From assembly GCA_016839555.1 (NCBI GenBank), contig JAEOUA010000007.1, positions 32,001 to 96,000 of the forward strand: DNA of 64,000 nt, given 5' to 3'. The position numbers and the translations under genes are program-made. Positions 18,285 to 48,418 of the stretch are shown in pieces. The notes under the pieces are model-generated. The model made no database searches. It worked only from the letters and a program-made list of their open reading frames with translations, and was not told where the DNA came from. This DNA is from Promethearchaeota archaeon (GTDB lineage: Archaea; Asgardarchaeota; Lokiarchaeia; Sigyniarchaeales; SOKP01). The first letter of the stretch is position 1. Each line of letters starts with the position of its first letter.

Positions 18285-18368
18285 CTCCTACTTTAATTAA
18301 AAAGAAAACTAAGGATTAAAATTTATTATGATTATTAATAATTATATCAGCGATTTTAATTGTTTTTA

Positions 18369-18436
18369 AAATTATTTTTATTTGATATTCAAATTATATT
18401 TGATTTTTCCCAATCTTTTAACTTCTCTTTTGGATA
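18369..18436. repeat. Direct repeat, copy 1: duplicate of the CaiB gene 3' end
   Basis: 62/68 nt identical to 20309-20376. Confidence 0.85.
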
Positions 18437-18549
18437 CTATACAGAAAAAGATTTATGAAAACATTTTTAAGATTAAGGATAATTTTAATAAATTCTTGAT
18501 TTACTAAATAGAAATAAAATTTATTAAGTAATTTAATTATTTACTAAAT

Positions 18550-19218: not shown

Positions 19219-19398
19219 AAATAATTCTATTATCCAATTACTATTATTATATTTAGTTTTATTTGGAATAGAATATAAAATTCGTTTCACAATAAAAATT
19301 TAGTTTAATCTCGTGGATAATTAAAAAGATAATGTTTAATGTATTTGATTTATATTATTTCATTTCGTTTCCACTTTTTCAAATTTTCTTTTGGATAA

Positions 19399-20148
19399 TT
19401 AAGAAGCTAATTTAAGACAAATTATTTGTTTTTTACCAAATAAATAAGTATCTAGTTGGTCTAATAAATTCCTCCCTATTAAAGCGTTAAAAGGAAAACA
19501 ATCAGCAATCGGTGCAAGAATAAATTCTGTATTAAATTTTTTATTAAATATTGTAATTTCACAGCTATACATTTTCGTTATAATAATACCAGTCGCAGTC
19601 GAGACTTTTTCCTCTCTCTTTACTTCAAAATCTTCAGAATCAAAACTATTCTTTTTTAATACACATAAAGAGGAAGCTGTATCTATGGATGATGATAATA
19701 TTTTTTCACCTAAATTAGTTTTAAAATTAATAGGGAAGATAGGATAAGAAGATTCTTCAACTTGCGCATATTTCCAACAATTTAATTCAGATAAATTAAG
19801 AAAGCAATATTCCATCTGTTTTTTTTTAGCACCATTATACTTTATCACTAAAGGTAAATCTGGAAAGTTTTTAACCGCAATTTGAGCAATTTCACTGGGA
19901 TTATCGCTAACAGCAATTATTGCCCCTCTTATGAATCCGACATATTTATTTTTTGGTATATAATCAGGAATCTTAACCTTTTGGCTTTCTTTTTCCGATA
20001 ATGATGTTTCCTGGATTTTAATTTGTTCTGTGATTAATTTGCGTATAAATTCACTCATTGATTTATTATTCTGTGATTCTGTTAAATCCTTTACTTTTTT
20101 CTTATCTTTATTATCTATATGAATATTTAAGATTGTCATATATATCAA
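19399..20148 (-). CDS. RHH-like / DUF5678-like / retropepsin-like aspartyl protease fusion
   Basis: N-terminal SMSEFIRKLI, middle NKYVGFIRGAIIAVSD, C-terminal IDTASS...LIGRNLL. Confidence 0.65.
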   Translation of the reverse strand: MIYMTILNIHIDNKDKKKVKDLTESQNNKSMSEFIRKLITEQIKIQETSLSEKESQKVKIPDYIPKNKYVGFIRGAIIAVSDNPSEIAQIAVKNFPDLPLVIKYNGAKKKQMEYCFLNLSELNCWKYAQVEESSYPIFPINFKTNLGEKILSSSIDTASSLCVLKKNSFDSEDFEVKREEKVSTATGIIITKMYSCEITIFNKKFNTEFILAPIADCFPFNALIGRNLLDQLDTYLFGKKQIICLKLAS

Positions 20149-20308
20149 AAAATTATTGAGAAATAATATTGATCATTGTGATATAAAAAGAAGATATATA
20201 TTAATATTTTGCCTAACGATTTTTATTATGTTGATTTATGAAATTTGGTTTTTTACTAACTATACGCATAATTTTGATTAGGTTATAATATTATTTGAAC
20301 AATTGTTG

Positions 20309-20376
20309 AAATTATTTTTACTTGATATTCAAATTATTTTTAATTTTTTCCATTCTTTTAACTTCTCTTTTGGGTA
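20309..20376. repeat. Direct repeat, copy 2: current 3' end of the CaiB gene
   Basis: 62/68 nt identical to 18369-18436. Confidence 0.85.
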
Positions 20377-21549
20377 TTTTAGAAGATCACAATAAATTTT
20401 TTCATTATGTTGTCCAAATGTAGGTCCTGGTGCTAATACTTCTCCAGGTGTCTCTGAAAATCGTATTAATCTATTTGGGATTGTTGCTTTTTCAACATTA
20501 TATTCGGAGAAATCAAACTGATCACATAACATCCCCCTTGCTCTTAAATTAGGATGATTATAAACCTCATACATGCTTAACGACTCTCCACATGGAATTC
20601 TCTCTGCTTCAAGAAGTTTAATTGCTTCTTTAGAGGTGTAAGATTTTGTCCATTTTTCAATAATATCATCCAATAAATCTACATAATTAAATCTCTTTAT
20701 AGGGTTAGAAAATCGAGGATCTTTTACTAATTCTGGTTTCTGGAGAATATTCTCACATAATCTTTTAAATTGCCGCTCGGTTAACGTAGTCATCACAATT
20801 AATCCATCTTTAGTATGATATTGATTATAAATTGGTAAAAATTTCACCCCTAAATCTAATTTTTTCGCCATTGGCATAAATTCTCTTGCCTGGGCTCGCA
20901 TATTAATAGCAAACATTATATCATGCATAGAAATGTCTAAAAATTGACCTTTACCAGTTTTTTCTCTATAATAAAGTGCCTGACTAATACCGATTGCTGC
21001 AACGTGACCTGCAGAGTAATCAGCTACAGGTAATTTTGGTGGTCCTTCTTTTAAATCCAACGTATCTAATATCGCTGCTTCTGCTTGAATTATAATATCG
21101 AAAGCGGTTTTCTTTGTATATCTTTCCAACCCCTCATTTCCATATCCAGATATTTTACAATAAATTAATCGAGGATTTAACTCCTTTAAAACATCATATC
21201 CAAGTCCCCATCTTTCCATTGTGCCCTTGACGAAATTCTCTACTATAATATCCGATTTTATTACAAGGTTTTTAAAGATTTCTTGTGCCTGTTGTTCCCG
21301 TAAATTTAAGGATATTGATTTTTTCCCACGGTTTAATATTGAAAATAAGGGAAAGATAGTTTTATCATACATAGAAAAGTAGCGAAAGGCTTCCCCGAAA
21401 GGAGGAGGATTTAGTATAACCACCAAATGCGGTTATATTTCTACCTTTATAACTTCCGCTCCTTGATCTGCGAAGAAAATGCTAGTCCACGGGCCACTAA
21501 TAAACTGACTACAATCTAATAATCTTATATTTTCAAAAATTTTGGGCAT
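20329..21549 (-). CDS. CaiB/BaiF (class III) CoA-transferase, interrupted by a 30-nt candidate intron; exons 21549-21439 and 21408-20329, 396 aa spliced
   Basis: Upstream ATG gives MPKIFENIRLLDCSQFISGPWTSIFFADQGAEVIKVE, which joins PPPFGEAFR...NRGKKSISLNL...DIIVENF. Confidence 0.9.
21409..21438 (-). other. Candidate 30-nt BHB-type intron in the CoA-transferase mRNA
   Basis: Hairpin tataaccgc/gtggttata containing an in-frame TAA; relaxed BHB; removal restores VIKVEPP. Confidence 0.7.
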
Positions 21550-47289: not shown

Positions 47290-48418
47290 ATGTCAAATGG
47301 AGATAGAAATATTATAACGATGGAAGATATATTAGCGAGAGAAGGTAAATGCAATGTACTATTTCTAAACTATGATAACGAGGCATTTATGAACACCGGA
47401 ATCCAAGGGAATTCTACATTTTAGTAGAATTCTGGAAAAATCTGGTGGTACGCCTCCATATGCAAGTACAACTACAGGACCAGCAGGAGAAAAAATACCC
47501 GGAAAAGTTGGAGTGAAACAAGATTTAGTCACTCCATTTGCATTTTATGGTTCAAAAAAATTGTTTTTAGCAACGGTAAATCCAGCATATCCTCTTGATT
47601 TAATGGGAAAAATAATGGATGCCCTTAAATCCGACGGATCAGCTTTTATACAGGCCTTAAGTGATTGTATGAGAGGCTGGAGGCATGATGCTAAGGATGC
47701 TTTGAAAATCTCTAAACTTGCGACTGATAGTGGGTATTGGCCTTTATATACCATTCGAGTTGAAGAGGGTATACCCGTATTTTCATATTATAGAGGACTT
47801 GATATTGATAAAGATAAGTTTGTGGAATTTTTGCAATCTATGGGGCGCTTTAGGCATCTTTTTAAACCAAAATTTATGGAAAAAGAAATCAATGAAATAA
47901 TCTTTCAAACGGAACAAAGAAACAAGAAGATAAAGGGGTTAATTGAACAGTTTGGCGCTGATAAACCTAAAGACATCTATAGAATTGATAGAAAAGCATT
48001 AAAACCACAGGAGCATTTGCTTCCTGGACATGGCTTATGCCCAGGGTGCGGTGCGGGCATGGTTCTTTTTCAAATGGCTACAGCAGCTTATCAAGTAGCT
48101 GGTAATAATATGATCTATGTAAATAATACAAGCTGCTCGGAAGTTTCAACATCAAAAGATAATGTGACCTCTTGGAAAGTACCTTGGGTACATCATCTCT
48201 TTGAATCAGGTGCCACCGTTGCTGATGCTCTGGCAACTGCTTATAAAATTTTGAAAAAGAAAGGTTTATTTGGAAAACCAATGGAAGAAGAGGTGCCTTA
48301 TGTTATTCATATCGGTGGGGATGGCAGTACTTATGATATAGGATTTCAATTTTTGAAAGCAGCATTAATTCGGACCAGTACTTTCATGGAAATGAGCGAA
48401 CTTTTAAACGAAAAATAA
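47290..48418 (+). CDS. porB: 2-oxoacid:ferredoxin oxidoreductase beta subunit, circularly permuted and interrupted by a 31-nt candidate intron; exons 47290-47407 and 47439-48418, 365 aa spliced
   Basis: ATG 1 nt after the porA stop gives ...YDNEAFMNTGIQ, which joins ESGGTPPYASTTT...; GHGLCPGC and GGDGSTYDIG lie in the C-terminal half. Confidence 0.9.
47408..47438 (+). other. Candidate 31-nt BHB-type intron in the porB mRNA
   Basis: Exon helix caccgga/tctggtg, 4-bp central helix tcca/tgga, 3-nt bulges agg and aaa, 9-bp intron stem gaattctac/gtagaattc. Confidence 0.85.

What the first reader, a model, noticed from the sequence alone, without database searches (positions are those of the whole stretch)
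21400..21450. Second, independent BHB-like mini-intron (30 nt) in a CaiB/BaiF CoA-transferase
Seen in sequence (minus strand): ATG 21549 gives a normal CaiB N-terminus ending ...GAEVIKVE, followed by ATA TAA CCG CAT TTG GTG GTT ATA CTA AAT and then CCT CCT CCT TTC. The 30 nt contain a stop codon and the hairpin UAUAACCGC/GUGGUUAUA (one G.U pair). Register: central helix GUAG/CUAA (3 of 4 paired), bulges AAA and AUC, weak exon helix. Cleavage after bulge nucleotide 2 removes 21438-21409 and restores the family motif VIKVEPP in a 396-aa protein. The sequence is unrelated to the porB insert; only structure and size are shared. The motif is relaxed rather than strict, so support is weaker than for porB.
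Basis: partly seen in the sequence, partly recalled or inferred. Interest (0 to 1): 0.88.

Follow-up and report, generated by a model that had tools for sequence, protein, structure and literature searches.

The report
tRNA-type mini-intron in CoA-transferase gene
A 30-base insert that breaks an enzyme gene of an uncultured Loki-type (Asgard) archaeon has the RNA shape cut by the tRNA-splicing enzyme and recurs, with compensating base changes, at the same codon in 23 related genomes, so this mRNA is very probably spliced, which papers report inside the coding sequence of only one other archaeal gene (cbf5).

Summary
A family III (CaiB/BaiF) CoA-transferase gene on the minus strand (21549-20329) is interrupted by 30 nt (21438-21409) that carry an in-frame TAA. 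Removing them gives a 396-aa protein with the family motif VIKVE-PPPFGE.

Of 46 orthologues in the same Promethearchaeota family, 23 carry a 30-nt (5) or 31-nt (18) insert at exactly this codon boundary, and 23 carry none. The inserts differ in sequence but all fold as a bulge-helix-bulge, with compensatory changes in the 4-bp central helix and the 9-bp inner hairpin. The 31-nt forms shift the frame. Even so, exon 2 stays open in 22 of 23, with dN/dS 0.06-0.11 at saturated synonymous sites. The exon codons that form the helix are frozen (AAG GTA GAA) only in insert-bearing alleles.

The genome encodes catalytic and structural EndA subunits and RtcB. No RNA data could be found, so splicing itself is inferred, not shown.

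This is a new member of a known kind (the cbf5-type archaeal mRNA intron). Earlier follow-ups in this scan reached the same reading for other genes of this genome, and first readers noted this same intron in other genomes.

The parts
21439..21549 (-). Exon 1 of the CoA-transferase gene (37 codons, M...GAEVIKVE)
   Evidence: Pfam CoA_transf_3 begins at residue 6. It is 86-95% identical to exon 1 of the orthologues.
21409..21438 (-). 30-nt BHB mini-intron with an in-frame TAA (21435-21433)
   Evidence: The sequence occurs only once in the genome. Inserts of 30 or 31 nt lie at the same site in 23 of 46 orthologues.
20329..21408 (-). Exon 2 (359 codons plus stop; PPPFGEAFR... to ...KKLKII)
   Evidence: dN/dS is 0.06-0.11 against insert-bearing orthologues. 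The catalytic-Asp region aligns to solved family III CoA-transferases.
21441..21444 (-). Central helix H, 5' strand (GUAG, in exon 1)
   Evidence: It pairs with 21414-21411. Across 23 orthologues 94.6% of cells are paired, and GUGG/CCAU is compensated twice. This 4-mer is fixed in insert-bearing alleles only.
21411..21414 (-). Central helix H, 3' strand (CUAA, at the intron 3' end)
   Evidence: Here 3 of 4 positions pair (G.A). In most orthologues the strand is CUAU or CUAC.
21438..21440 (-). 5' bulge AA|A; the predicted cut lies between 21439 and 21438
   Evidence: The cut after bulge nucleotide 2 coincides with the boundary defined by intron-less orthologues.
21408..21410 (-). 3' bulge AU|C; the predicted cut lies between 21409 and 21408
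   Evidence: Same evidence as for the 5' bulge.
21415..21437 (-). Inner helix h' (9 bp, 21437-21429 with 21423-21415) and its 5-nt loop AUUUG (21428-21424)
   Evidence: Seven of the 9 pairs show changes on both sides among orthologues.
21445..21446 (-). Outer helix h, 5' strand (A21446, G21445), pairing with U21406 and C21407
   Evidence: The G-C pair is present in 23 of 23 insert-bearing alleles but in 5 of 23 intron-less ones. The A-U pair is present in 13 of 23.
21406..21407 (-). Outer helix h, 3' strand (C21407, U21406, in exon 2)

Best explanation
The 30 nt at 21438-21409 are an archaeal bulge-helix-bulge (tRNA-type) intron inside the coding sequence of a family III CoA-transferase.

Proposed mechanism. 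The primary transcript folds so that the last exon-1 bases (GUAG) pair with the intron's 3' end (CUAA). A 9-bp intron hairpin lies on one side and a short exon-exon helix on the other. This leaves two 3-nt bulges on opposite strands. The two-subunit splicing endonuclease EndA cuts after the second nucleotide of each bulge, and RtcB joins the exons. The result is ...GUA GAA|CCU CCU..., which encodes a 396-aa enzyme with an intact VIKVE-PPPFGE loop. Unspliced mRNA ends translation at the TAA two codons into the intron.

Shown here: the anatomy; conservation of site and fold with covariation; selection on both exons; and the presence of the enzymes.

Inferred: cleavage and ligation in vivo, and the fate of the intron (probably a 30-nt circle).

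The intron was probably present in the ancestor of this Promethearchaeota family and was then lost cleanly several times.
For: 1. Same site. 23 of 46 same-family orthologues have an insert exactly between codons 37 and 38 (5 of 30 nt, 18 of 31 nt). 23 have none, and 3 more distant orthologues have none.

2. Frame. A 31-nt insert shifts the frame and all 23 inserts have a stop in the exon-1 frame. Yet exon 2 is open for 358-360 codons in 22 of 23. dN/dS of this gene against the others is 0.06-0.11, with synonymous differences near saturation (pS 0.66-0.77). The codons that abut the insert on both sides vary synonymously while the amino acids stay fixed.

3. Fold. On alignment A1 the named BHB has 84% of cells paired, against 30-53% when partners are slid. 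Eight pairs change on both sides, and 0 of 500 shuffles reach the covariation score. The central helix reads GUAG/CUAU. It becomes GUGG/CCAU in two orthologues, AUAG/CUAU in one and GUAG/CUAC in two.

4. Exon constraint. AAG GTA GAA is found in 19 of 23 insert-bearing alleles and in 0 of 23 intron-less alleles, which use six different codons (GTN, ATT, TTG) for codon 36 and AAA, AAG or AGG for codon 35 (Fisher 4e-9, not corrected for kinship).

5. Cut sites. The cuts predicted from the fold (after bulge nucleotide 2, as at the canonical tRNA 37/38 intron) equal the boundaries defined independently by intron-less alleles.

6. Machinery. One EndA paralogue keeps Tyr/His/Lys and aligns without gaps to the Aeropyrum pernix chain 3p1z_B, including the loop region. 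A second paralogue lacks the His. RtcB is present. The literature assigns Asgard archaea an (alpha-beta)2 EndA with the L1 loop that gives broad specificity (PMC5829648).

7. Context. 17 of the 28 tRNA genes that ARAGORN calls carry introns of 8-43 nt. Other genes of this genome are split by inserts of the same architecture.
Against: No transcript evidence exists: spliced junctions, the excised intron and the full-length protein have not been observed. In this genome the central helix has only 3 Watson-Crick pairs plus G.A, and the outer helix next to the bulge has 2 bp. Minimum-free-energy folding recovers the inner hairpin but not the 4-bp helix, and RNAalifold recovers only the top of the hairpin. 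The strict motif is no more frequent genome-wide than a parallel-pairing decoy, so the fold alone would not be convincing without the orthologues. One insert-bearing orthologue (L063) has a further frameshift.
Confidence: 0.86

Rival explanations
1. Dead gene: the insert is a disabling mutation and the CoA-transferase is a pseudogene.
For: There is an in-frame TAA. One orthologue (L063) has a further frameshift near codon 114.
Against: 22 of 23 insert-bearing orthologues from several genera keep both exons intact. dN/dS is 0.06-0.11 although synonymous sites are saturated. The insert is held at one site with a conserved fold and compensatory changes. A neutral scar would decay.
Confidence: 0.02
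2. Two-piece or truncated enzyme: no splicing occurs. Exon 2 is translated from an internal start (here TTG 21426 inside the insert), with or without a separate 38-aa N-terminal peptide.
For: the ORF listing gives a 365-aa ORF from TTG 21426. Public gene callers annotate many orthologues as proteins of 339-367 aa.
Against: In 14 of 23 orthologues the exon-2 frame is closed by TAA or TAG as the very last codon of the insert, so no start can lie upstream of PPPFGE. Yet PPPFGE[AS]FR is conserved at the protein level with synonymous variation. Exon 1 (37 codons) is also conserved at 86-95% in another frame. The helix-forming exon codons are frozen only when the insert is present, which this model does not explain.
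Confidence: 0.05
3. Translational bypass: the ribosome hops over the 30-31 nt, as at T4 gene 60 or the 'byp' inserts of yeast mitochondria.
For: The insert is short, carries a hairpin and has a stop soon after the take-off point. Its size is similar to known bypassed gaps (own knowledge).
Against: No landing codon matches the take-off codon GAA. The last three insert bases are AAT here and TAA, TAG, AAA, CAA, CAT, TAC, ATA or TAT elsewhere. The covariation lies between exon 1 and the 3' end of the insert, in the exact geometry of an EndA substrate, with 3-nt bulges at both borders. Hopping does not require that geometry.
Confidence: 0.04
4. The insert is translated by stop-codon read-through or recoding and forms a 10-residue loop.
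For: The 30-nt insert is in frame in this genome.
Against: 18 of 23 orthologous inserts are 31 nt long and shift the frame. Several contain two or three stops of different kinds. Solved homologues have no room for the 10 residues at this loop.
Confidence: 0.01

Closest known systems
BHB intron in the cbf5 (pseudouridine synthase) pre-mRNA of Crenarchaeota (Watanabe 2002; Yoshinari 2006; Yokobori 2009, PMC2738675)
   Same: Both are introns inside an archaeal coding sequence with a bulge-helix-bulge at the exon-intron borders. Both are attributed to a hetero-oligomeric EndA. In both cases the intron was inherited within a clade and lost cleanly in some lineages.
   Different: The phylum differs (Promethearchaeota/Asgard rather than Crenarchaeota), and so does the gene (a metabolic CoA-transferase rather than an RNA-modification enzyme). 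Here splicing is inferred; for cbf5 it was shown by RT-PCR and in vitro cleavage. In some orthologues this gene has a second intron site, and the genome holds several other split genes.
BHB intron in the 5' UTR of HVO_1309, Haloferax volcanii (PMC7714728)
   Same: It is an mRNA substrate of the tRNA-splicing endonuclease outside tRNA and rRNA. The excised intron was seen as a circle.
   Different: That intron is 46 nt long, lies in the untranslated leader and does not interrupt the reading frame. It is cut by a homodimeric euryarchaeal EndA.
BHB introns of Asgard tRNA genes (bioRxiv 10.64898/2026.10.13.758758; PMC5829648)
   Same: The same machinery would act, with the same motif, the same cut positions and similar lengths. 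In this genome ARAGORN reports tRNA introns of 8-43 nt.
   Different: The host RNA is a messenger. The exon halves of the motif must at the same time encode protein, which is visible as frozen codons.
Unconventional splicing of HAC1/XBP1 mRNA (Ire1 endonuclease plus tRNA ligase/RtcB)
   Same: It works like this case: a short intron (26 nt in XBP1, own knowledge) is removed from a mature-looking mRNA by a structure-specific endonuclease and the tRNA ligase, and its removal changes what is translated.
   Different: The endonuclease (Ire1) and the motif (twin stem-loops) are different. That splicing is a regulated stress switch, and no regulation is known here. This is not a family member.
Programmed translational bypass (T4 gene 60; mitochondrial 'byp' elements)
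   Same: A short in-gene insert with a hairpin and a stop does not destroy the protein.
   Different: Bypass needs matched take-off and landing codons, which are absent here. It does not need a BHB.

Membership tests
Archaeal bulge-helix-bulge (EndA-type) intron | [quoted passage not shown] | tested here: met
   The bulges are AAA (21440-21438) and AUC (21410-21408). The helix is GUAG/CUAA with 3 pairs plus G.A in this genome. All 4 pairs are present in 18 of 23 orthologues, and 94.6% of cells are paired.
Archaeal bulge-helix-bulge (EndA-type) intron | Flanking helices h (exon-exon) and h' (intron-internal) | tested here: inconclusive
   h' is met: 9 bp, with 7 pairs showing double changes. 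h is only G-C plus A-U next to the bulge. A possible distal extension CGGAAG/CUUUCG (21458-21453 with 21401-21396) pairs here, but it is equally present in intron-less alleles. The motif is therefore of the relaxed (HBh'-like) kind.
Archaeal bulge-helix-bulge (EndA-type) intron | Cuts after the second nucleotide of each bulge give the functional RNA | tested here: met
   The predicted cuts remove exactly 21438-21409. They reproduce the codon 37|38 junction of 23 intron-less orthologues, in this genome and in all 23 insert-bearing ones.
Archaeal bulge-helix-bulge (EndA-type) intron | Splicing endonuclease of a type that accepts the motif, and an RNA ligase, are encoded in the genome | tested here: met
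   There are two tRNA_int_endo genes. One is alpha-like with Tyr/His/Lys and aligns without gaps to 3p1z_B over the loop region. The other is beta-like without the His. RtcB matches at E 2.8e-169. The assignment of subunit type rests on sequence only.
Archaeal bulge-helix-bulge (EndA-type) intron | Excision and exon ligation observed in RNA | not testable with these tools
   No RNA run was listed for this stretch, so read laying could not be used.
Family III CoA-transferase (CaiB/BaiF, Pfam PF02515) | Full-length match to the family profile | tested here: met
   E 6e-88, model positions 2-366 of 366, across both exons.
Family III CoA-transferase (CaiB/BaiF, Pfam PF02515) | Conserved N-terminal loop (VIKVE-x-P-x-x-G-[DE]-x-x-R) and the catalytic Asp region | tested here: met
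   After removal of the insert the sequence reads VIKVEPPPFGEAFR. 'VADYSAGH' aligns with 'MTDIVAGM' of the solved formyl-CoA transferase 10uh_A. The substrate is unknown.

The most novel reading that the evidence does not exclude
This intron may be one of a whole population of 28-36-nt tRNA-type introns in protein-coding genes of Promethearchaeota. They would be old enough to be shared across genera, gained or lost gene by gene, and obligatorily removed by the tRNA-splicing machinery. If so, the closest archaeal relatives of eukaryotes already express many split protein genes. The frozen stop-containing inserts might also serve as a post-transcriptional gate on enzyme production, as in XBP1/HAC1.
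Probability: 0.6. Interest if true: 0.9.

Novelty: new member of a known kind. Interest (0 to 1): 0.78.

Why it matters
Papers held here name cbf5 of Crenarchaeota as the only archaeal coding sequence with an endonuclease-type intron (PMC7714728, PMC2738675). I found no paper that describes such introns in protein genes of Asgard archaea.

This gene gives an unusually clean comparative case. Intron-bearing and intron-less alleles occur in equal numbers, insert lengths shift the frame, both helices covary, and the exon codons show a visible cost of having to encode both protein and splice signal.

The finding has three consequences:
- It bears on how split genes and RNA-level repair of coding sequences arose in the lineage nearest to eukaryotes.
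- Current annotation is systematically wrong: orthologues are deposited as N-terminally truncated proteins of 339-367 aa.
- It offers a direct experimental substrate for Asgard EndA.

Tried and rejected
- **RNA evidence.** No RNA holder was listed for window:20250-21650, so no reads could be laid.
- **Repeat or mobile element.** The 30-nt sequence occurs once in the 3.74-Mb assembly even with 3 mismatches allowed. It is therefore not a multi-copy MITE. Rfam and ARAGORN find nothing in the window.
- **Genome-wide scan of my own for BHB motifs that restore ORFs.** It was not discriminating. The loose version gave 268 clusters against 227 for a parallel-pairing decoy. The strict version gave 2563 motifs against 2436, and 16 against 10 ORF-restoring hits with at least 25 codons on each side. 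AT-rich sequence and closely spaced genes create the background. The scan did recover this intron and the porB one, as the two strongest hairpins in the window, and it pointed to four more candidates. It missed introns that earlier notes report elsewhere in the genome.
- **Distal extension of the outer helix (CGGAAG/CUUUCG).** It pairs equally often in intron-less alleles (0.85 against 0.86 of cells), so it is not supported by comparison.
- **Thermodynamic folding alone.** Minimum-free-energy folds and RNAalifold recover the inner hairpin but not the 4-bp helix.
- **Spliced or intron-less copy of this genome's own allele.** None appeared among public proteins. The nearest are 91% (partial) and 83% identical.
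- **Careful tree search.** It did not finish in the time allowed, so the quick IQ-TREE tree was used.

Full report
**What is in the sequence**

On the minus strand an ATG at 21549 opens 37 codons of a clear family III CoA-transferase N-terminus ending GAEVIKVE. They are followed by 30 nt (21438-21409) that begin ATA TAA. After the 30 nt the frame continues with PPPFGEAFR... for 359 codons to a stop at 20331-20329. Pfam CoA_transf_3 matches across both pieces (E 6e-88, model 2-366 of 366). A solved formyl-CoA transferase aligns with a gap of exactly ten residues at the insert and with the catalytic-Asp region conserved.

**Organism and machinery**

The window is G000:C6:32001-96000 of a 3.74-Mb, 12-contig assembly with an archaeal SSU rRNA. 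The nearest records that carry the gene are MAGs labelled Promethearchaeota, i.e. Loki-type Asgard archaea.

The genome has two tRNA-intron-endonuclease genes:
- One (198 aa) keeps the Tyr/His/Lys triad. Its best match is the Aeropyrum pernix chain 3p1z_B, aligned without gaps through the N-terminal loop region.
- The other (208 aa) lacks the histidine and matches more weakly.

[quoted passage not shown] RtcB is present. ARAGORN calls only 28 tRNA genes, 17 of them with introns of 8-43 nt. That agrees with a preprint describing heavily interrupted Asgard tRNA genes (10.64898/2026.10.13.758758).

**Orthologues**

A search of 135 genomes of the same family found 48 with an orthologue. I fetched them and mapped each onto an intron-less reference protein with ungapped tblastn. 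Of the 46 for which the junction region could be read:
- 23 have no insert.
- 23 have an insert exactly between codons 37 and 38: 30 nt in five (this genome, L008, L010, L011, L027) and 31 nt in eighteen.
- Three orthologues from another family of the order (49% identity) have none.

All 23 inserts contain a stop in the exon-1 frame, and the 31-nt ones shift the frame. Exon 2 is nevertheless open for 358-360 codons in 22 of 23. The exception, L063, has a further frameshift near codon 114. dN/dS between this gene and the other insert-bearing alleles is 0.06-0.11, with synonymous differences close to saturation. The residues next to the insert on both sides (QGAEVIKVE and PPPFGE[AS]FR) are conserved through many synonymous changes. 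These genes are expressed as whole proteins, so the insert must be neutralised after transcription.

**The fold**

The inserts share little sequence but share one architecture:
- Exon 1 ends GUAG-AA.
- The intron starts with one unpaired base.
- A hairpin of about 9 bp with a 4-6-nt loop follows.
- Then come CUAU (or CUAA, CUAC, CCAU) and two unpaired bases.
- Exon 2 starts with an unpaired base followed by C.

I wrote this as a structure on the MAFFT alignment A1 and counted pairs:
- 84% of cells pair, against 30-53% when the 3' partners are slid by 1-3 columns.
- Eight of 15 pairs show changes on both sides.
- No shuffle of 500 reaches the covariation score or the percentage paired.

In the central helix, A-U becomes G-C in two orthologues (GUGG with CCAU). 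The outer pair is G.U in 15, G-C in 2, A-U in 1 and G.A in 5, this genome among the last. The cut positions that the motif dictates (after the second nucleotide of each bulge, as at the canonical tRNA 37/38 intron) are exactly the boundaries defined by the intron-less alleles.

**A cost to the exon**

In insert-bearing alleles codons 35-37 read AAG GTA GAA in 19 of 23. The four exceptions are the two compensated GTG alleles, one ATA (which turns the G.U pair into A-U) and one GAG at codon 37, in the 5' bulge. In intron-less alleles this string never occurs. There codon 36 is GTT, GTC, GTG, GTA, ATT or TTG, and codon 35 is mostly AAA (Fisher 4e-9, uncorrected for kinship). The G of AAG pairs with the second base of exon 2 in 23 of 23 insert-bearing alleles but in only 5 of 23 intron-less ones. 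The exon therefore carries a structural constraint only where the insert is present. This is what an exon-intron helix predicts, and the rival explanations do not predict it.

**History**

On a quick maximum-likelihood tree of exon-2 proteins, presence and absence of the insert are interleaved. Parsimony needs 13 changes, of which at least 6 are forced by well-supported branches. The inserts keep recognisable common features (3' end ACUAUAA, loop A/U-UUC). I therefore favour one old gain in the family followed by several clean losses, as proposed for cbf5 (PMC2738675). The gene tree may not equal the species tree, however, and repeated gain is not excluded.

**Rivals**

- Pseudogene: contradicted by selection on the exons and by conservation of the fold.
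- Internal start or two-piece enzyme: it fails because in 14 of 23 alleles the exon-2 frame is closed by the last codon of the insert, yet the following residues are conserved, and because exon 1 is conserved in another frame.
- Ribosome hopping: no landing codon matches the take-off codon in any allele.
- Read-through: excluded by the 31-nt alleles.

**What is missing**

There is no RNA evidence. No RNA run was listed, so cleavage and ligation are inferred. In this genome the motif is slightly relaxed (G.A in the central helix, a 2-bp outer helix). Thermodynamic folding alone finds only the hairpin. My own genome-wide motif scan showed that the motif by itself is not enriched over a decoy in this AT-rich genome. 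The case rests on the comparison with orthologues.

**Novelty**

Papers held here state that cbf5 is the one archaeal coding sequence known to carry such an intron, alongside a 5'-UTR intron in Haloferax (PMC7714728). Searches for Asgard or Promethearchaeota mRNA introns found none. The library is incomplete, so this is 'not found', not 'absent'.

Within this scan the phenomenon is not new. Earlier follow-ups reached the same reading for porB, top6B, rnhB, moxR and cdhB of this genome. First readers noted this very CoA-transferase intron in other genomes. I tested the latter independently through the orthologue set. I file the finding as a new member of the known cbf5-type class, with high interest because of the lineage and because this gene supplies strong comparative proof.

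Noticed in passing
window 47408-47438 (+): A second mini-intron lies in the window. A 31-nt insert sits in a long ORF (42 and 325 open codons on either side) with a perfect central helix UCCA/UGGA and a 9-bp hairpin of -9.4 kcal/mol. Its sequence is unrelated to the CoA-transferase insert.
   Followed up: partly
orthologue loci L011, L043, L046, L048, L052, L054, L056, L058, L063 (around codon 15/16 of the same gene): Nine orthologues carry a second insert of 32-35 nt inside LDCS[QH]|FISGPW. This genome does not have it. In L011 a register GCUC/GAGU with bulges ACA and AAA gives the expected S-Q-F-I junction, but the base of the inner hairpin is weak. Two of the nine (L043, L058) have this site occupied while the codon-37 site is empty.
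   Followed up: partly
G000 C12:324996-325025 (-), C12:205678-205708 (+), C10:447264-447293 (-), C10:139518-139548 (-): Four more 30-31-nt inserts have the same architecture (9-bp stem, 5-6-nt loop). Pfam shows that three of them split single genes: argininosuccinate synthase (exon 2 starts at model position 12), a Glycos_trans_3N/Glycos_transf_3 phosphorylase (exon 2 starts at model position 11), and a histone-deacetylase-family protein (model 4-154 and 193-296). The fourth has no Pfam match.
   Followed up: partly
window 18353-18441 and 20293-20381: An 89-nt direct repeat (84% identity) duplicates the 3' end of the CoA-transferase gene 1.94 kb downstream. It brackets an islet that includes an RHH/aspartyl-protease-like ORF (19399-20148, minus strand). 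A third, weaker copy lies at 19348-19397. The arrangement looks like the footprint of an insertion into the gene's 3' end.
   Followed up: partly
whole genome G000: ARAGORN finds only 28 tRNA genes in 3.74 Mb, 17 of them with introns. The shortfall suggests that many tRNA genes are too interrupted to be called.
   Followed up: no
public protein records: Orthologues fall into two length classes: 395-397 aa (intron-less alleles) and 339-367 aa (gene calls that start after the insert). Deposited annotations of the insert-bearing alleles are therefore N-terminally truncated. This window's own call is 364 aa.
   Followed up: partly
locus L063 (G072:C102): This orthologue carries both inserts and also a frameshift near codon 114. 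It has eight stops across the match and only 61% identity. It may be a true pseudogene or an assembly error.
   Followed up: no
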